DNA from: Copranaerobaculum intestinale
GTDB taxonomy: Bacteria; Bacillota_I; Bacilli_A; Erysipelotrichales; Erysipelotrichaceae
Assembly (NCBI RefSeq): GCF_009831105.1
Contig: NZ_WUUQ01000001.1
Span: forward strand, 810,001-842,000
Direction of reading: 5' to 3'
DNA: 32,000 bases
Below are positions 3,709 through 28,017 of this stretch, one piece after another. The notes beneath the pieces are model-generated. The model did no database searches, was not told the origin of the DNA, and saw nothing but the letters and a program-made list of their open reading frames with translations. The stretch's first letter is position 1, and each line of letters opens with the position of its first letter. A program made the position numbers and the translations under genes.

Positions 3709-5496
3709 ATGTTACTTTCAGCTGAACATATTACGAAATATCAAAATGAAAAATGCATCCTTGAGGATGTTTCTTTTGCCATCGAAGAGCGAATGAAGCT
3801 GGGACTGATCGGAGTGAACGGAGTTGGAAAAACCACCCTGCTTAGAATTTTGGCGGGGGAAGAGCATTTGGATTCAGGAAGGATCATTCAGCAAAATGGG
3901 CTGCGGGTTCACTACCTGCCCCAGAATCCTCGTTTTCAGGAGGGTAAAACGATCTATCAGTGCGTTCTTGATGCAGTAAATGAAAAACAGCGGGAAGCCT
4001 GTACCTTTGAAATTCAGACAATACTTTCTAAGCTGGGCATGCGGGATTATGAACAAACCGTTGAAGTTCTGTCCGGGGGACAGCGTAAGCGCGTGGCGTT
4101 GGCCTGTGCACTGGTGAGCGAATGTGATCTGCTCATATTGGATGAGCCGACCAATCATCTGGATAATGACATGGTGGAATGGCTGGAGCACTATTTGATG
4201 AAATATCCTAAAGCATTGTTAATGGTGACGCATGACCGCTACTTCTTGGAGCGTATTACCGATCATCTCATGGAATTGGATCGGGGAAATCTGTATCTGT
4301 ATGACGGCAATTACGAGACATACCTTGAGATGAAGGAACAGCGCAGTCAAATGGAAGCTGTGCAGCTGAAGAAGCGTCAAAAGCTTTTGAAAAAAGAACT
4401 GGCGTGGATGCGAGCCGGCGTTCAGGCAAGAGGTACCAAAAGTCAGAGCCGGATCGATCGTTTTTATGAGCTTCGTACGCAATGCCGCGCTAAGCAGGAT
4501 GAAACCATGCAGTCAATAAATTCCATCACCTCACGGCTGGGGCGCAAAATCATGGAGATCACCGATTTACGCATGGGCTACGATAATAAGATTCTGTTTC
4601 ATGATGTTAATATTCGGGTAAAAAAACGGGATCGCATCGGTATCATCGGACCAAACGGCTGTGGGAAAACGACCCTGCTGAATGTTCTTTCTCATAATTT
4701 AGAACCGTTAAGCGGAGAAGTTGTTATCGGTGAAACTGTTAAGCTGGGATTCTTTCATCAAGGAGATGATCAGATGGATCTCTCAATGCGGGTCATTGAC
4801 TATATCCGTAATCAGGGAGATCAGATTCAAACAACGGATGGATCGCGTACTGCGGCTCAGCTGCTTGAACAATTTCTGTTTCCCAAGCAGCTTCAATACA
4901 CACAGATCAAAAGGTTGTCTGGGGGTGAACGGCGGCGGCTGTACTTGCTAAAGGTGCTGATTGCTTCACCGAACGTGCTGTTTTTGGATGAACCGACAAA
5001 TGATTTGGATATCCAGACCCTGACGATTTTAGAAGATTATCTCGATACATTCCCCGGGGTTATTATTACGGTATCGCATGACCGTTATTTTTTGGATCGA
5101 ATCTGTGATTCACTCTTTGTATTTCAAGCAGATGGTACATTGCGTGAATATGCCGGGGGATACAGCGATTATATTGCGCGGCAAGCGGCTGAGCCAGATT
5201 TGCAGACAGTGAATAAAAGTCGTGGCAAAAGCCGTGCGGAACGATCTTCGATTCCCTCCTTTACATCATCTGAACGACGTGAATTTGAATCAATTGACGA
5301 AGTGATTGCCGGATTAGAGGCTGCGATCGCGGATATCGACCATCAAATGGAATCACGGCAGGATCAATTTGATGAAATTGCGGTGCTTGCCGATCAACGG
5401 GAAAAGCTGACAAGAGATCTGGATCTGAAAACAGAGCGCTGGATGGAGCTTCAGGAAAAATATGATGCGATTCAGGCGGCGCGAAAGGGGAGATAA
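3709..5496 (+). CDS. ABC-F family ATPase (Uup-like; tandem ABC domains, no TM domain, C-terminal coiled coil)
   Basis: Two Walker A sites (GVNGVGKTT, GPNGCGKTT), two signature motifs (LSGGQRKR, LSGGERRR), a basic inter-domain linker and an acidic/basic coiled-coil tail. Confidence 0.9.
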   Translation: MLLSAEHITKYQNEKCILEDVSFAIEERMKLGLIGVNGVGKTTLLRILAGEEHLDSGRIIQQNGLRVHYLPQNPRFQEGKTIYQCVLDAVNEKQREACTFEIQTILSKLGMRDYEQTVEVLSGGQRKRVALACALVSECDLLILDEPTNHLDNDMVEWLEHYLMKYPKALLMVTHDRYFLERITDHLMELDRGNLYLYDGNYETYLEMKEQRSQMEAVQLKKRQKLLKKELAWMRAGVQARGTKSQSRIDRFYELRTQCRAKQDETMQSINSITSRLGRKIMEITDLRMGYDNKILFHDVNIRVKKRDRIGIIGPNGCGKTTLLNVLSHNLEPLSGEVVIGETVKLGFFHQGDDQMDLSMRVIDYIRNQGDQIQTTDGSRTAAQLLEQFLFPKQLQYTQIKRLSGGERRRLYLLKVLIASPNVLFLDEPTNDLDIQTLTILEDYLDTFPGVIITVSHDRYFLDRICDSLFVFQADGTLREYAGGYSDYIARQAAEPDLQTVNKSRGKSRAERSSIPSFTSSERREFESIDEVIAGLEAAIADIDHQMESRQDQFDEIAVLADQREKLTRDLDLKTERWMELQEKYDAIQAARKGR

Positions 5497-20656: not shown

Positions 20657-20711
20657 ACTATCACCTCTTCTTACATCAATCATAGCACATTTGTAAATTT
20701 AATGATATTTA

Positions 20712-20805
20712 AAATTCAATTAAATTGGATTTTTAAATATTGATATCCATTGACATTTGCAATTTGCAGGAATATTATGGTATTAAATCCAATATAATTG
20801 AATTT
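20712..20805. promoter_or_regulatory. Genetic-switch region: consensus rightward promoter bracketed by a 21-bp inverted repeat (putative operators)
   Basis: AAATTCAATTAAATTGGATTT (20712-20732) and its inverted copy AAATCCAATATAATTGAATTT (20785-20805) differ at one position. Between them: TTGACA (20750-20755), 17-nt spacer, TATTAT (20773-20778). Confidence 0.65.
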
Positions 20806-20849
20806 AATTTATAAATGTTCAATTAAACGGTGGTGGGAGGAGAAATGAA

Positions 20850-21260
20850 ATGATTACACAAAAAGACAAGGCAGAACAATTTAAAAGGGATCTGCGTTCC
20901 AGACAATTTTATGAAGGAATGGTACGGGAATATGATTTGAAGCTGGAAGAAATTAGTATCCATCTTCAAGGTGTCAATTCGCCGCGTACCGATGTTGTAA
21001 GAAAGACAAGTCATCATCGGCAAAACAATTTTGTTTATTGGCTTATGGAGGAAGAAATCTGTATCAAAGAGCGAAAGAACTATTGTGATCGGATTGCTCG
21101 GATGGATGAAACATTGGCAAAACTGGAAGATGAAGAGCGGGATTTGATCGTCGATCTTTATGTAAAAAATAAACGTCATGAAAACGTTGCAGATGAACAT
21201 CATATGAACCGACAAAATATGTATAAAAAAATTGACAAAATGCTTTTTCGAATTTTATGA
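20850..21260 (+). CDS. Sigma-70 region-4-like / ArpU-RinA-type phage late-gene regulator
   Basis: 136 aa. The C-terminal ERDLIVDLYVKNKRHENVADEHHMNRQNMYKKIDKML looks like a region-4 HTH. The gene sits where late activators sit in Bacillota siphoviruses. Confidence 0.55.
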   Translation: MITQKDKAEQFKRDLRSRQFYEGMVREYDLKLEEISIHLQGVNSPRTDVVRKTSHHRQNNFVYWLMEEEICIKERKNYCDRIARMDETLAKLEDEERDLIVDLYVKNKRHENVADEHHMNRQNMYKKIDKMLFRIL

Positions 21261-21263
21261 AGG

Positions 21264-21401
21264 TTGCGACAATGTACCAAAGCAGAAATGATATGATACA
21301 TATGCGGAAGAAAAACAAGCTTTTCTTCCTCTGCCTTTTGTTTGAACGGCATAAAAAAACAAAGCGTGTGAAGGCTGTGCTTCCGAAATAATTCACAGGA
21401 T
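21264..21401 (+). repeat. Late promoter/leader element, copy 1
   Basis: Blocks TTGCGACAATGTACC, GCCTTTTGTTTGAAcGGCATAAAAAAACAAAGC, TGAAGGCTGTGCTTC and CACAGGAT are shared with 26452-26581. Block 4 ends 20 nt before the ATG in both copies. Confidence 0.7.
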
Positions 21402-21421: not shown

Positions 21422-21889
21422 ATGAATACTTTACAGTCAATGAAATTTAGCGGATATGGTATGGATTATCCCACCGCGGAGGTAAAGAAGTACAGTGATA
21501 AGGAATTAAACGATCGAATTGCAAAAGCAAAAAGAAAAGCAATAGAAAAATTTATTCGAAAACTTGGCTATACAGATGAAGCAGCACTACAGGATTCGCT
21601 TCACTATGAAGGGAAAGCGGATTTATTGCTTCGTGAAGAAGCATGGAAGCAGGAAAAACAGAAGCTTCATGTGGAATTGAGTCGATGCCGACGAATGCTC
21701 ATGTTGTATGAACAAAATATTGATCCCATGTTCTTTGAATTTATTCTCTATCAGCTTCAAGATGAAAGCGATACTGAAATATTCCAATCCAAACTTCAGA
21801 AGTTTATGGAAGATCATCCCCAATATTCCAAAGCGTATTCTAAAACGGATGAATTACATCCCTTCGTACTGCTGTATAAGAATACATAG
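21422..21889 (+). CDS. Phage protein of unknown function
   Basis: I prefer the ATG at 21422 (GGGAGGG upstream). The protein is charged and helical. No family recognised. Confidence 0.6.
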   Translation: MNTLQSMKFSGYGMDYPTAEVKKYSDKELNDRIAKAKRKAIEKFIRKLGYTDEAALQDSLHYEGKADLLLREEAWKQEKQKLHVELSRCRRMLMLYEQNIDPMFFEFILYQLQDESDTEIFQSKLQKFMEDHPQYSKAYSKTDELHPFVLLYKNT

Positions 21890-21944: not shown

Positions 21945-22400
21945 ATGTTGGAAAACAAGCAGTTAGAATCTTTGACAATGTATGATCAGAAACGTATTGT
22001 TGATAGTCTTCTGCCATTTTTGGACACCATTCCTGATCTGCCTTCACCGATTAAATTTGGAGTCTTACATAAACAAAGTGTTTCCATGTGCGTCCAGTTT
22101 TTAAAAAGTGAAGTACAGAAAAGACAGGATATTACCGGGGGATATACAGGAAGTCTGTATTTCTCAATCTGGTATCGATTCCAAGAAGCGGATGCAGCGA
22201 CAGAATTATATGGTTCTAATGTCATGTATCAGATTAATGAATTTTTTGATTCTGCCTGCGAAAATAATGCATTGCCAGTATTAGGCGATGATATGCAGTA
22301 CTTGAAAATAGGAATGATTGAGCTTCCGACGGTAGAACGAAAAATAGACAATATGTTGGATTGCATGGCTATTTTTGAGTGTAGAATTGAACATCAATAA
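21945..22400 (+). CDS. Putative tail-completion / tail-terminator-type protein
   Basis: 151 aa with a strong AGGAGG ribosome-binding site, immediately upstream of the major tail protein gene. The call rests on position and size only. Confidence 0.45.
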   Translation: MLENKQLESLTMYDQKRIVDSLLPFLDTIPDLPSPIKFGVLHKQSVSMCVQFLKSEVQKRQDITGGYTGSLYFSIWYRFQEADAATELYGSNVMYQINEFFDSACENNALPVLGDDMQYLKIGMIELPTVERKIDNMLDCMAIFECRIEHQ

Positions 22401-22418: not shown

Positions 22419-22922
22419 ATGACTTCAGTAAATGCAGCAGGTATCGCTACGCGCGATGAAATGTTATCGTATATGAATACAGGATCTGGCGATCAGGCAG
22501 TATGGAGCCTGATCGGACAGGGTTTTACAGAATTGACAGAAGCTTTAAATGCAAAGACTAAGGATAGTCAGTATATTCACCAGAAATCGGGAACATCTTC
22601 CGTGATTGGATATGCCCCTACTTTTACATTTGTGGCAGAGCTTGATAAAGCGGATCCAGTGGCATCCTTTATTGCCAATATTGGACGTGAGCGTAAAATC
22701 GGTGCGGAATGTGAGACCGATATTGTGAATGTTTATTCCTGGCTGCCGGGTACAACTGAGGGCTCTGTGGTTGCTTATCAGCAGCATGTAGCCGTGAAAG
22801 TGGATAATAGTGGCTCCGGTGTCGGCGGTGAAGCAATGGGTCTTGCCGGCGCTCTGTTATACAAGGGTGATGCAGTAAAAGGGGAATGGAATCCAACTAC
22901 AAAGACTTTTACAGCAAAATAA
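22419..22922 (+). CDS. Major tail protein (TP901-1-like tail tube)
   Basis: 167 aa. N-terminal ...SYMNTGSGDQAVWSLIGQGFTELTEALNAKT... and its position ahead of the chaperone/TMP genes fit this family. Confidence 0.78.
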   Translation: MTSVNAAGIATRDEMLSYMNTGSGDQAVWSLIGQGFTELTEALNAKTKDSQYIHQKSGTSSVIGYAPTFTFVAELDKADPVASFIANIGRERKIGAECETDIVNVYSWLPGTTEGSVVAYQQHVAVKVDNSGSGVGGEAMGLAGALLYKGDAVKGEWNPTTKTFTAK

Positions 22923-22927
22923 GATCA

Positions 22928-22955
22928 AAGCGGATATTCATTATCCGCTTTTTTA
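22928..22955 (+). terminator. Intrinsic terminator directly after the major tail protein gene
   Basis: AAGCGGATA-loop-TATCCGCTT followed by T5. Confidence 0.7.
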
Positions 22956-22964
22956 ATAAGAATA

Positions 22965-23150
22965 GCAATTACCATCTTTTATTGACTGTGTTCAGCATAT
23001 TAAAAAAATCTCGATTCATTACTGCTGAAGCGATGAATCGTGAATATCCCGTTGGTTTAGCTTTTAAACGAGGTTGAAATTAATCGAAAGGAAATTGATA
23101 TACAATCTGATACTATGTACTATTTGAATACTTCTAATCTAGAATGTTAG
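22965..23150 (+). pseudogene. Relic of a duplicated tail-chaperone 3' end fused to an internally deleted gp15-like gene
   Basis: 22999-23110 aligns base-for-base (roughly 80% by eye) with 26940-27054, the chaperone/gp15 junction. 23123-23156 aligns with the gp15 3' end at 27575-27600. Confidence 0.6.
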
Positions 23151-26451: not shown

Positions 26452-26581
26452 TTGCGACAATGTACCTAGATATCCATGATAAGATGATAGTGTGGTTTGA
26501 TAGATAGAAAACCTTTGCCTTTTGTTTGAATGGCATAAAAAAACAAAGCAATGAAGGCTGTGCTTCTTTTTTACACAGGAT
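26452..26581 (+). repeat. Late promoter/leader element, copy 2
   Basis: Same four conserved blocks as 21264-21401, and the same 20-nt distance from CACAGGAT to the start codon (26602). Confidence 0.7.
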
Positions 26582-26601: not shown

Positions 26602-27003
26602 ATGAGTAAATTTGAATTTAAGAATCAGGAAAAGCCAGAATTCTTGAAACTTCAGATAAATGGAAGAAACTATTCATTTAATCCATTGTCATTATCGGTG
26701 AAAAGAGCTTCAGAAAAATTTTTGAAGGGACAAAAAGTGCTTATGCGCCAGTCAAAGAAAGAAAATTTAAAACAGGAAGAAATCTCTGATATTGTTTATA
26801 AATGCTGTGATTTAGTAAGAGAAACCATTGATTTGATTCTAGGTAATGGAGCGTATGAAAAAATATTTGGAGGCAGAACGATGGATTTTGAAGAAAATCA
26901 GGAATTAGTAACCTTTATTTTTCAAGAAATTGCATCATTTACCAAAAATAAGAATCTGACGGTACATGCGGAAGAAATGAATCATGAACATCTTGTTGGA
27001 TAA
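26602..27003 (+). CDS. Putative tail assembly chaperone
   Basis: 133 aa, acidic. Sits at the position preceding the gp15-like and tape-measure genes. GGGAG ribosome-binding site. Confidence 0.55.
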   Translation: MSKFEFKNQEKPEFLKLQINGRNYSFNPLSLSVKRASEKFLKGQKVLMRQSKKENLKQEEISDIVYKCCDLVRETIDLILGNGAYEKIFGGRTMDFEENQELVTFIFQEIASFTKNKNLTVHAEEMNHEHLVG

Positions 27004-27586
27004 GCTTCCGAACAAGGTTGAAATTAATCAGAAGGAAATTGATATTCGATCTGATTTCAGACAGGGAATACAGTTTGAAATGCTGATGGCTGATTCATCA
27101 ATTTCCTATATGGATAAGATGTTAAAAGCTATTTTAATATACTATCCAAAAGTTCCGGAGGATATATCTGCATGTGTTGAAAAACTTATATGGTTTTATA
27201 ACTGTGGAATGAAATTGAAAGAGAGAAAAAATGTGAATGGGAAATTAACAAATAAACCGATTTTTTCCTATGAGCAAGATCAATATCTTATTTATTCAGC
27301 TTTCCTGCAGTATTATCAAATTGATCTGAATGATATTGAATATTTGCATTGGTGGAAATTTAAAGAGCTTTTTCAAGAATTGCCAGATGAATCAAAAATA
27401 AAACAAGTGATGATGTACCGATCCATACCGATTACTTCGAATATGTCTGAGGATCAAAGACAATTTTATGCAAATATGAAAAATATATATCGTTTAAATG
27501 ATGATCGTTCGGAAAAACAGATTGCTAATTCTTTTGCATCTATCCTTGCTTCTGGGATGATGAATGCCCCTGAACTTGAATACTAG
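26984..27586 (+). CDS. Gp15-like tail assembly protein
   Basis: 200 aa. N-terminal LPNKVEINQKEIDIRSDFRQGIQFEMLM resembles the Gp15 family of TP901-1/A118-like phages. Overlaps the upstream gene by 20 nt. Confidence 0.55.
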   Translation: MNILLDKLPNKVEINQKEIDIRSDFRQGIQFEMLMADSSISYMDKMLKAILIYYPKVPEDISACVEKLIWFYNCGMKLKERKNVNGKLTNKPIFSYEQDQYLIYSAFLQYYQIDLNDIEYLHWWKFKELFQELPDESKIKQVMMYRSIPITSNMSEDQRQFYANMKNIYRLNDDRSEKQIANSFASILASGMMNAPELEY

Positions 27587-27990: not shown

Positions 27991-28017
27991 AAAAGAAATC
28001 AAATGATTTCTTTTTTT
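27991..28017 (+). terminator. Intrinsic terminator between paralog E and the tape-measure gene
   Basis: AAAAGAAATC / GATTTCTTTT stem followed by a T-run, 30 nt before the TMP start codon. Confidence 0.7.

What the first reader, a model, noticed from the sequence alone, without database searches (positions are those of the whole stretch)
21264..21401. Duplicated late promoter/leader element in front of both halves of the split tail operon
The element at 21264-21401 lies just after the sigma/ArpU-like regulator gene. It shares four ordered blocks with 26452-26581.
- TTGCGACAATGTACC: 15 of 15 nt identical.
- GCCTTTTGTTTGAA(c/t)GGCATAAAAAAACAAAGC: 32 of 33 nt identical. It contains a CTTTTGTTT/AAACAAAG hairpin.
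- TGAAGGCTGTGCTTC: 15 of 15 nt identical. It forms a small GAAG/CTTC hairpin, which in copy 2 is followed by T6.
- CACAGGAT: ends exactly 20 nt before the start codon in both copies.

Sequence between the blocks is unrelated. This looks like a regulator-dependent late promoter (TTGCGA as a -35-like box) plus a structured 5' leader. The second copy appears to restore expression of chaperone, TMP, Dit and Tal downstream of the 3.5-kb insert.
Basis: partly seen in the sequence, partly recalled or inferred. Interest (0 to 1): 0.62.

Follow-up and report, generated by a model that had tools for sequence, protein, structure and literature searches.

The report
Duplicated late promoter cassette in tailocin
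The repeat is real: two copies of a promoter recognised by the element's own late-gene regulator, each followed by a strongly conserved untranslated leader of unknown role, head the two transcription units of a head-less phage-tail (tailocin-like) gene cluster. The second copy is an old feature of this lineage, not a repair of this genome's 3.5-kb insert.

Summary
Observation confirmed. 21264-21401 and 26452-26581 share four ordered blocks, and these are the only two copies in the 2.3-Mb genome.

- **Block 1 (promoter box).** TTGCGACAATGTACC is most likely the recognition box of the adjacent regulator, a distant DUF1492/LtrB-type, sigma-region-4-like protein. TTGCGA is not a -35: it lies 22 nt from the -10.
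- **Family-wide layout.** About 25 regulator homologues place the -10 region 26-28 nt after their stop codon. The box co-varies with the protein's recognition helix.
- **Hairpin.** A 5' hairpin follows in every copy and keeps its pairing through sequence changes.
- **Blocks 2-4.** They are 50-54 of 54 nt identical across lineages. Spacers are scrambled and regulator third codon positions are 43-63% identical, so the blocks are under selection. No fold can be proven, Rfam has no match, and the module is confined to this lineage.
- **Second copy.** Relatives without the large insert have copy 2 only 151-320 nt after a terminator behind the tube gene, so copy 2 is ancestral.

This scan has noted similar repeated late-promoter cassettes in gut phages on other DNA. 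No transcript data could be obtained.

The parts
20850..21260 (+). Late regulator gene (136 aa). Distant DUF1492/LtrB-type protein with a sigma-region-4-like C-terminal helix-turn-helix.
   Evidence: - Weak hits to sigma-70 region 4, RinA and phrog_36/248/1740.
- 16 of 67 homologues match Pfam DUF1492, and one is named so by NCBI.
- AF2 model pLDDT 86. The C-terminal ~55 residues superpose on sigma region 4 domains at 1.9-2.7 A, but the Foldseek E-values are not significant.
21264..21278 (+). Copy 1 recognition box TTGCGACAATGTACC, at about -40 to -26. The core ACA-A-TGT is palindromic.
   Evidence: - Invariant in all 13 promoter copies of six related elements plus the window, including the L086 third copy.
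- Starts 4 nt after the regulator's stop codon.
- Co-varies with the recognition helix across the family.
21289..21297 (+). Copy 1 extended -10 (TGA TATGAT). Predicted start of transcription near G21304.
   Evidence: - Conserved as TGnTATGAT or TGnTATTAT at a fixed 14 nt after ACAATGTAC in relatives.
- The start site is inferred, not measured.
21306..21329 (+). Copy 1 5' hairpin P1 (GGAAGAAAA / TTTTCTTCC), -10.3 kcal/mol.
   Evidence: -.
- A hairpin starts within 0-3 nt of the predicted +1 in every copy, with different stem sequences.
21332..21401 (+). Copy 1 conserved leader module: block 2 (21332-21365), block 3 (21369-21383), block 4 (21394-21401).
   Evidence: - 50-54 of 54 block positions are identical across lineages, against 3-8 of 19 spacer positions in the diverged lineages and in all copy-2 comparisons.
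- No Rfam match.
- Folding z-score about 0.
21422..21889 (+). First gene of late unit 1 (155 aa, unknown function). It is followed by a 151-aa gene (21945-22400) and the tail tube gene (22419-22922).
   Evidence: -: the tube protein hits phrog_3099/820 and NF047353.
- Same gene order in L056-L060.
22927..22957 (+). Intrinsic terminator ending late unit 1, directly after the tube gene.
   Evidence: - -13.4 kcal/mol hairpin plus T6.
- A terminator stands at the same place in L056, L057 and L058.
26452..26466 (+). Copy 2 recognition box TTGCGACAATGTACC.
26477..26485 (+). Copy 2 extended -10 (TGA TAAGAT). Predicted start of transcription near G26492.
   Evidence: - Same spacing as copy 1.
- TGATAAGAT or TGATAAAAT in copy 2 of L056, L057 and L058.
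26494..26513 (+). Copy 2 weak 5' hairpin (GGTTT / AAACC), -3.5 kcal/mol.
26516..26581 (+). Copy 2 conserved leader module: block 2 (26516-26549), block 3 (26552-26566), block 4 (26574-26581).
26602..27003 (+). First gene of late unit 2 (DUF6673 chaperone-like). It is followed by Gp15-like, a small accessory gene, TMP, Dit and Tal.

Best explanation
The two elements are two copies of one late-promoter cassette. They head the two late transcription units of a head-less, non-contractile phage-tail cluster (monocin-like F-type tailocin) in a gut Erysipelotrichaceae bacterium.

**Cassette parts, in order**
1. A 15-bp box, TTGCGACAATGTACC, at about -40 to -26.
   - It is read by the sigma-region-4-like helix-turn-helix of the 136-aa regulator encoded just upstream of copy 1.
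   - That regulator is a distant member of the DUF1492/LtrB branch of the Ltr late-activator superfamily.
2. An extended -10 (TGnTATGAT / TGnTAAGAT), read by the host's main sigma factor. There is no usable -35, so the regulator supplies the missing upstream contact.
3. A hairpin at the very 5' end of the transcript.
4. A roughly 70-nt leader module (blocks 2-4).
   - It is under strong sequence-level selection and is specific to this lineage.
   - It most likely acts on the RNA after initiation, through pausing or attenuation, transcript stability, or a binding partner.

**Transcription units**
- Unit 1: two small genes and the tube gene. It ends at a strong terminator.
- Unit 2: chaperones, TMP, Dit, Tal and onward. 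It restarts at copy 2.
- The gap between the terminator and copy 2 is a cargo-insertion site.

**Status of each step**
- Shown: the anatomy, the conservation, the box/helix co-variation, and the ancestry of copy 2.
- Inferred: the start sites, regulator binding, dependence on the regulator, and any RNA-level role of blocks 2-4.

The confidence given is for the promoter-cassette reading as a whole. The RNA-level role of blocks 2-4 alone I would put at about 0.5.
For: **Repeat and anatomy**
-.

**Relatives**
- Six related elements from public assemblies carry the cassette.
- Three with enough contig (L056, L057, L058) have both copies. L086 has three promoter copies.

**Promoter layout across the family**
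- The -10 region begins 26-28 nt after the regulator's stop codon in most of about 25 homologue loci. A box that is often palindromic lies about 14 nt upstream.
- Full phages place the regulator gene directly before the terS/terL/portal genes.

**Box tracks the recognition helix**
- A Dielma prophage regulator is only 39% identical overall. It has the same helix (HMNRQNMYK) and the same box.
- Regulators with other helices have other boxes.

**Regulator family**
-.
- The Ltr family is experimentally described as late activators that bind just after their own gene (PMC3753634).

**Selection on the non-coding blocks**
- Blocks are 50-54 of 54 identical. Spacers are 3-8 of 19 in the diverged lineages and in all copy-2 comparisons.
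- Regulator third codon positions are 43-63% identical.

**Hairpin P1**
- Present in every copy with different stem sequences.

**RNA rather than DNA for blocks 2-4**
- The conserved arms CTGTG/CACAG are separated by 11-14 nt of variable sequence.
- The three substitutions that fall in candidate stems (A-to-G in L061, C-to-T in L060 and in L061) stay pairable as G-U on the sense strand only.

**Copy 2 is ancestral**
- Tube stop to copy 2 is 151, 320, 1335 and 3529 nt in L058, L056, L057 and the window. Each has a terminator after the tube gene.

**Monocin parallel**
- The monocin locus is likewise described as two operons, lmaDCBA and lmo0119-0129 (PMC4940397).
Against: - No transcript data.
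- The window's regulator does not itself reach any curated family threshold. Fold matches to sigma region 4 have non-significant E-values.
- Characterised Ltr proteins bind 2-4 direct 7-nt repeats and are said to drive the late cluster from one promoter. Here there is one imperfectly palindromic box and two promoters.
- For blocks 2-4:
  - No pair shows a compensatory change.
  - Predicted folding is no better than shuffled sequence.
  - Sequence-level invariance would also fit a DNA site.
- A third promoter copy in L086 lacks blocks 3-4, so the promoter can exist without them.
Confidence: 0.72

Rival explanations
1. Blocks 2-4 are DNA operators. A repressor or host factor binds downstream of the start site and blocks late transcription, as a second lock on a lethal tailocin/lysis programme.
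For: - The blocks are invariant in sequence with no compensatory changes.
- They contain inverted repeats: TGCC-N12-GGCA, GAAG-N6-CTTC and CTTTTGTTT-N13-AAACAAAG.
- RNA folding is not better than shuffles.
Against: - Spacing between blocks varies by 2-4 nt, and the spacing between CTGTG and CACAG varies from 11 to 14 nt. That fits a hairpin loop better than a fixed protein-DNA register.
- Substitutions in candidate stems are G-U compatible only on the sense strand.
- The XRE repressor's likely operators in the early region (inverted repeat 20705-20732 / 20785-20812) look nothing like the blocks.
- No other copy exists in the genome.
Confidence: 0.12
2. The cassette is a termination-control device. 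Either the regulator acts like lambda Q, or the leader acts like the HK022 put RNAs, and RNA polymerase that starts here becomes resistant to terminators. The hairpin plus TTTTGTTT, and blocks 2-4, would be the pause or loading part.
For: - Most phage relatives have a near-consensus extended -10, followed within the late leader by an intrinsic terminator that every late transcript must cross. At least 17 of about 27 loci show this.
- A -12 kcal/mol terminator with a T7 run stands between copy 2 and the TMP gene (27991-28017). The sister element L090 has one at the same place and only one late promoter.
- There is a weak sub-threshold hit of the regulator to Phage_antitermQ, E 0.014.
- Other reports of this scan describe the same promoter-then-terminator layout on other DNA.
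Against: - If polymerase were terminator-resistant, the conserved strong terminator after the tube gene and a second promoter would be largely pointless.
- In the tailocin lineage the U tract is separated from hairpin P1 by 4-6 nt (UGCC), so P1 is not a canonical terminator.
- Leaky terminators that set tube-to-TMP stoichiometry explain the internal terminators more simply.
- Published work describes Ltr proteins as activators (PMC3753634).
- L090 lacks blocks 2-4.
Confidence: 0.17
3. The shared blocks are only the residue of a duplication or of gene conversion between the two copies, and have no function of their own.
For: - Both copies in the L061/L086 lineage share the lineage-specific AAAGT variant. 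This could reflect gene conversion between the copies.
Against: - Orthologous copies in lineages whose regulators are only 56-61% identical, with third codon positions 43-46% identical, still keep 50 of 54 block positions. The spacers between blocks are scrambled.
- Conversion would homogenise the spacers too.
Confidence: 0.03

Closest known systems
Ltr-dependent late (terS) promoters of Gram-positive temperate phages: RinA, ArpU, LtrA/Sigma70_r4, LtrB/DUF1492, LtrC (PMC3753634, PMC3152322)
   Same: - A small (~15 kDa) regulator is encoded as the last early gene.
- Its DNA target lies immediately after its own stop codon.
- It has a conserved C-terminal DNA-binding domain and is specific for its cognate site.
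- It controls morphogenesis genes.
- Homologues of the window protein match DUF1492.
   Different: - One 15-bp imperfect palindrome sits over the -35 position, instead of 2-4 direct 7-nt repeats upstream of the promoter.
- There are two promoters per element (three in L086), not one for the whole late cluster.
- The host element is a head-less tail cluster with no terS.
- A roughly 70-nt conserved leader module is added.
- The window protein itself is below every curated threshold.
Listeria monocin (F-type phage tail-like bacteriocin) locus (PMC6872733, PMC4940397, PMC11830787)
   Same: - A metalloprotease plus a CI-like repressor are transcribed divergently from the regulator gene(s).
- Then come the tube gene, Gp15-type chaperone, TMP, Dit and Tal, with no head or packaging genes.
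- It is described as two operons, the first ending with the tube gene (lmaA).
   Different: - No duplicated promoter/leader has been described there, to my knowledge.
- It has two early genes of unknown function (lmaD, lmaC) rather than one regulator.
- It is in a different bacterial family.
- Killing activity of the present element is untested.
Lambda Q with PR' and tR' (from established knowledge)
   Same: - The regulator gene stands directly before the late promoter.
- The regulator's DNA site lies inside the promoter.
- In phage relatives, a terminator follows shortly downstream.
- Accessory cassettes with their own terminators sit inside the late operon.
   Different: - No significant homology to any Q family.
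- No evidence of a sigma-dependent pause.
- The tailocin leader lacks a canonical terminator.
- A strong terminator plus a restart promoter argues against processive antitermination.
HK022 putL/putR cis-acting antiterminator RNAs (from established knowledge)
   Same: Two copies of a conserved ~70-nt transcribed element, each just downstream of one of two promoters of a phage-derived element.
   Different: - put RNAs are two stable stem-loops supported by covariation.
- Here folding is no better than shuffles and no covariation exists.
- No test of antitermination was possible.
Repeated 'box + extended -10 + leader terminator' late cassettes noted by this scan in uncultivated gut phages (e1-3477042, e1-3500031, e1-3134927, e1-3602325)
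   Same: Several copies of a regulator box plus extended -10 stand ahead of successive late-gene blocks, with an Ltr-type regulator encoded next to one copy.
   Different: - Those are AI notes that I did not check.
- They concern full phages with clear leader terminators.
- Here the host is a tailocin, the terminator is degenerate, and a further conserved leader module is present.

Membership tests
Ltr superfamily late regulator and its promoter | [quoted passage not shown] | tested here: met
   - 136-aa gene at 20850-21260, between the XRE/ImmA switch and the tail genes.
- Homologues in full phages sit directly before terS/terL/portal.
Ltr superfamily late regulator and its promoter | Regulator belongs to one of the described families (RinA, ArpU, Sigma70_r4/LtrA, DUF1492/LtrB, LtrC). 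| tested here: inconclusive
   - The window protein has no Pfam hit at threshold. Sub-threshold hits: Sigma70_r4_2 E 0.014 and RinA E 0.055.
- 16 of 67 profile-linked homologues match DUF1492, best E 1.2e-5, and one is named DUF1492 by NCBI.
Ltr superfamily late regulator and its promoter | Binding site immediately distal to the regulator's coding sequence, specific to the cognate regulator. | tested here: met
   - The box starts 4 nt after the stop codon.
- The box co-varies with the recognition helix across about 30 loci.
- Binding itself was not tested.
Ltr superfamily late regulator and its promoter | Site made of 2-4 direct 7-nt repeats upstream of the promoter. | tested here: not met
   There is a single 15-bp box with palindromic core ACA-N-TGT, overlapping the -35 position.
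Ltr superfamily late regulator and its promoter | Transcription of late genes depends on the regulator. | not testable with these tools
   Needs reporters or RNA data.
F-type phage tail-like bacteriocin (monocin type) | Non-contractile tail genes without head, packaging or replication genes, conserved as such in relatives. | tested here: met
   - The window and the 62.8-kb contig of L056 show ImmA, XRE, regulator, tube, chaperones, TMP, Dit, Tal and a receptor-binding protein only.
- The window ends inside Tal, so lysis genes were not seen.
F-type phage tail-like bacteriocin (monocin type) | Particles are produced and kill related bacteria. | not testable with these tools
   Needs induction and spot assays.
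Lambda-Q-type late antitermination | Regulator homologous to a Q family. | tested here: not met
   - Phage_antitermQ E 0.014, 15.8 bits against a cut-off of 26.
- No Q structure among the fold matches.
Lambda-Q-type late antitermination | Intrinsic terminator between the late promoter and the late genes. | tested here: inconclusive
   - Present in at least 17 of about 27 phage relatives.
- In the window, hairpin P1 is followed by TTTTGTTT only after a 6-nt spacer.
Any described RNA family (Rfam 15) | Match to a covariance model. | tested here: not met
   - No match at gathering thresholds.
- Only noise, at or below 18 bits, with permissive settings on either copy.

The most novel reading that the evidence does not exclude
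Late transcription in this regulator family may be controlled at termination as well as initiation. The DUF1492-like protein docks at the box and leaves RNA polymerase able to pass the terminators that lie in the late leaders of phage relatives and before the TMP gene here. In the tailocin lineage, the invariant leader module (hairpin, TTTTGTTT, blocks 2-4) would be the pause or loading platform for that step. This would be a Gram-positive counterpart of lambda Q or HK022 put, hidden inside a family so far described only as activators.
Probability: 0.15. Interest if true: 0.8.

Novelty: new variant of a known kind. Interest (0 to 1): 0.45.

Why it matters
- **A readable promoter code.** It gives a concrete promoter code (box at -40 to -26 plus extended -10, at a fixed distance from the regulator's stop codon) for a poorly described branch of the Ltr late regulators in gut Erysipelotrichaceae phages. 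Box/helix pairs can be read straight from genomes.
- **Wiring of a domesticated tail.** The cluster is wired as two regulator-dependent units separated by a terminator and a cargo-insertion site. This parallels the two operons of Listeria monocin.
- **An unexplained control element.** The 54 near-invariant non-coding positions after each promoter sit on a lethal production programme. Their mechanism is unknown, and they offer a compact, testable handle on how tailocin output is gated after initiation.
- **A practical use.** Anyone engineering these elements as narrow-spectrum antibacterials could use the cassette as a regulator-controlled expression part.

Tried and rejected
**Searches that found nothing useful**
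- BLAST of the 171-nt element against 199 genomes of the family gave only chance hits.
- Exact-pattern scans found nothing: genome contigs twice, viral contigs twice, metagenome contigs once. Relatives came only through protein look-ups in Logan/ENA assemblies.
- A covariance model of blocks 2-4 against 150 family genomes scored the two own copies at 92-95 bits. Everything else scored 28 bits or less and looked like noise on inspection.
- Rfam gave nothing at gathering and permissive thresholds.

**Structure tests**
- Three candidate secondary structures of blocks 2-4 were counted. All paired 99-100%, with zero compensatory changes, so they are uninformative.
- RNAalifold gave a covariation term of -0.08.

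**Readings considered and rejected**
- Leader peptide. An ATG-initiated 29-codon frame exists in copy 1. The frame is broken by 2-4-nt indels between the blocks, and stops occur in copy 2 and in L060. The gene call in L056 that fuses the leader to the first gene is an artefact.
- By eye, blocks 2-4 fit none of these motifs:
  - CsrA site (the GGA is not conserved)
  - LexA box
  - cre site
  - sigma-54 promoter
  - internal sigma-70 promoter
  - anti-SD sequestration (CUUCC is not conserved)
- The one near match to block 3 elsewhere in the genome lies in coding sequence.
- The PDB sequence search with the regulator profile gave nothing.

Full report
**1. The observation**

The two stretches were read directly and aligned.
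- All four blocks are present at the stated coordinates, with the stated identities.
- The sequence between them is unrelated: 6 of 19 spacer columns are identical.
- The 33-nt block is expected 0.00 times by chance even with 3 mismatches.
- In the whole 2.3-Mb genome the box, block 2 and block 3 occur exactly twice. The one near match to block 3 lies in coding sequence.
TGA-TATGAT (21289-21297) and TGA-TAAGAT (26477-26485) lie at an identical distance from block 1, and each is followed by a hairpin.

**2. Context**

The gene order in the window is as follows.
- tRNA, an integrase relic and a lipoprotein gene.
- ImmA-type protease and XRE repressor, on the minus strand.
- A 136-aa regulator (20850-21260), then copy 1.
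- Genes of 155 aa and 151 aa, then the tail tube gene (22419-22922) and a terminator.
- About 3.5 kb of small-gene cassettes, then copy 2.
- DUF6673 chaperone-like gene, Gp15-like gene, a small accessory gene, TMP, Dit and Tal.

There are no head, packaging or replication genes. A related 62.8-kb contig (L056) shows the same head-less layout. This matches the organisation of the Listeria monocin locus (PMC6872733). That locus is described as two operons, lmaDCBA and lmo0119-0129 (PMC4940397). Earlier notes of this scan on the same window reached the same tailocin reading.

**3. Relatives**

DNA searches of the family and exact-pattern scans of three public collections found nothing. Protein look-ups did find relatives.
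- The regulator has homologues at 97, 81, 77, 74, 60 and 56% identity.
- The DUF6673 protein has homologues at 60-99% identity.
- Their contigs give 13 promoter copies in six elements plus the window.
- The box TTGCGACAATGTACC is invariant in all of them.

**4. Block 1 is the regulator's box in an extended -10 promoter**

- In relatives, the sequence 14 nt after ACAATGTAC reads TGTTATGAT, TGTTATTAT, TGATAAGAT or TGCTATAAT. These are extended -10 elements.
- TTGCGA lies 22 nt from this -10, so it is not a -35.
  - The hexamers 17 nt after it in the window are AATGAT and CATGAT.
  - They exist only because ATGAT is locally duplicated, and they are absent in L056 and L058.
- With the -10 at 21292-21297, the start is predicted near 21304 and the box spans about -40 to -26. 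For copy 2 the start is predicted near 26492.
- Across the bacterial family, 39 of 396 genomes encode homologues.
  - In most of about 25 loci the -10 region starts 26-28 nt after the regulator's stop codon.
  - A box, often palindromic, of the type G-ACA-N-TGT-C precedes it.
- The box follows the protein's recognition helix.
  - A Dielma prophage regulator is 39% identical overall, yet has the helix HMNRQNMYK and the box TTGCGACAATGTAACC.
  - Proteins with other helices have other boxes.
- In full phages the gene sits directly before terS/terL/portal.

**5. The regulator**

- Curated libraries give only sub-threshold hits: sigma-70 region 4, SigF-type regions 3-4, RinA, Phage_antitermQ, and phrog_36/248/1740.
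- A profile search links it to proteins named DUF1492. Sixteen of 67 aligned homologues match Pfam DUF1492 and five match Sigma70_r4.
- DUF1492 is the LtrB family of the Ltr superfamily of late activators.
  - These proteins bind just after their own gene and activate the terS promoter.
  - An LtrB from a Streptococcus suis prophage was shown to do so in a reporter assay (PMC3753634).
- The AF2 model has pLDDT 86.
  - It is a long helical hairpin followed by a three-helix domain.
  - That domain superposes on sigma region 4 domains (SigF, SigD, SigL) at 1.9-2.7 A over 52-56 residues.
  - The Foldseek E-values are not significant.
- Inference: the regulator supplies the -35-region contact for a promoter whose -10 is read by the host sigma.

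**6. The leader**

- *Hairpin P1.*
  - A hairpin begins within 0-3 nt of the predicted +1 in every copy, with different stems:
    - GGAAGAAAA/UUUUCUUCC
    - GCGGA-GGAAA/UUUCCUCCGC
    - GCAGUU-AGG/CUU-GAACUGC
    - GUGGA/UCCAC
    - GGUUU/AAACC
  - It is therefore maintained structurally, and it fits the predicted start.
  - It is strong in most copy 1 versions (-7 to -12 kcal/mol) and weak in copy 2 versions (-1.6 to -4).
- *Conservation of blocks 2-4.*
  - Blocks 2-4 follow after 2-6 nt, or about 8 nt in L086 copy 2.
  - Against window copy 1, 50-54 of 54 block positions are identical in every other copy.
  - Spacer positions are 3-8 of 19 in the diverged lineages and in all copy-2 comparisons.
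  - Third codon positions of the regulator gene are 43-63% identical.
  - This is purifying selection on non-coding sequence.
- *No fold can be proven.*
  - The blocks hardly vary, so no compensatory change exists for any of three candidate folds.
  - Predicted stability equals that of shuffles, with z from -1.2 to +0.35.
- *Evidence that leans towards RNA.*
  - CUGUG and CACAG are conserved arms around a loop that varies in sequence and in length (11-14 nt).
  - The three substitutions in candidate stems (A-to-G in L061, C-to-U in L060 and in L061) remain G-U pairs on the sense strand.
It falls in the loop of the alternative UGCC/GGCA hairpin.
- *Features not conserved.* The T6 run after block 3 and the 20-nt distance to the ATG are not conserved.
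- *Distribution.*
  - There is no Rfam match.
  - A covariance model finds only the two own copies among 150 family genomes.
  - The sister elements L088 and L090, and all phage relatives, lack the blocks.
- *Separable modules.* A third promoter copy in L086 has the box, TGCTATAAT and a hairpin. It then has only a degenerate trace of block 2 and no blocks 3-4. The promoter and leader modules are therefore separable.

**7. The second copy**

- L058, L056, L057 and the window have copy 2 at 151, 320, 1335 and 3529 nt after the tube stop codon.
- Each has a strong terminator (-13 to -23 kcal/mol) directly after the tube gene.
- The two-unit layout therefore predates this genome's insert. The terminator-to-promoter gap is a variable cargo site.
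- In the sister clade (L088, L090) the tube and chaperone genes are 18-19 nt apart, with one late promoter only.
- The duplication arose within the TTGCGACAATGTACC lineage. It possibly compensated for an older terminator or insertion, but this cannot be ordered with the present data.

**8. Termination**

- Most phage relatives have an intrinsic terminator inside the late leader.
- The window has a -12 kcal/mol terminator with a T7 run between copy 2 and the TMP gene (27991-28017).
- L090 has one at the same place with a single promoter.
- This raises the possibility of a Q-like read-through step, as several other reports of this scan also note on other DNA.
- Against it:
  - The conserved tube terminator plus restart promoter would be largely pointless.
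  - Hairpin P1 is separated from its U tract by a spacer.
  - Leaky terminators that set stoichiometry are a simpler explanation.
- I rate this possibility at about 0.15-0.17.

**9. Verdict**

- This is a real, selected, two-copy late-promoter cassette of the Ltr kind in a tailocin-like cluster.
- The promoter part is a new example of a known kind, with a well-resolved architecture.
- The attached leader module is an undescribed, lineage-restricted cis element whose mechanism is open.

Noticed in passing
L086:5093-5180 (same sequence at L087:2599-2690): A third copy of the box, with TGCTATAAT and a -10.9 kcal/mol hairpin, stands in a rearranged relative. It lacks blocks 3-4 and keeps only a degenerate trace of block 2. 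It lies about 700 nt before a 458-aa gene of unknown function.
   Followed up: partly
window 27991-28017; L090:6095-6130: An intrinsic terminator closes the small accessory gene just before the TMP gene, in the window and in a sister element that has only one late promoter. TMP, Dit and Tal therefore need read-through of it.
   Followed up: partly
loci L027-L048, L053, L062-L064 (downstream of the regulator homologues): In phages of this bacterial family the extended -10 of the late promoter starts 26-28 nt after the regulator's stop codon. It is followed, in at least 17 of about 27 loci, by an intrinsic terminator inside the late leader.
   Followed up: partly
L064:8430-8480: A Dielma fastidiosa-type prophage regulator is only 39% identical overall. 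It shares the recognition helix HMNRQNMYK and nearly the same box (TTGCGACAATGTAACC) with the tailocin lineage. This suggests possible cross-talk between a phage and a tailocin if both were in one cell.
   Followed up: no
window 23023-23111 versus 26967-27055: An 89-nt stretch is 81% identical to the chaperone/Gp15 junction. It is a relic showing that the insert arose partly by segmental duplication of tail-module DNA. This was also noted earlier by the scan.
   Followed up: no
L056:1872-2504: The public gene call fuses the untranslated leader in frame to the first late gene (210 aa instead of 155). This is a likely annotation artefact, caused by a stop-free leader in that strain.
   Followed up: no
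L088:3059-3811: The sister tailocin-like element uses a LexA/CI-type repressor with a Peptidase_S24 domain, in place of the ImmA/XRE pair. The switch module has been exchanged while the tail module is kept.
   Followed up: no
L086:246-603 and 4099-4701; L061:5331-5682: In the most diverged lineage the first late gene and the Gp15 gene are broken into fragments. That element may be decaying although both leader copies are intact.
   Followed up: no
window 20705-20812: A 28-nt inverted repeat, 86% complementary, brackets a near-consensus promoter (TTGACA-17-TATTAT at 20750-20778) in front of the regulator gene. These are the likely XRE operators of the early switch.
   Followed up: no
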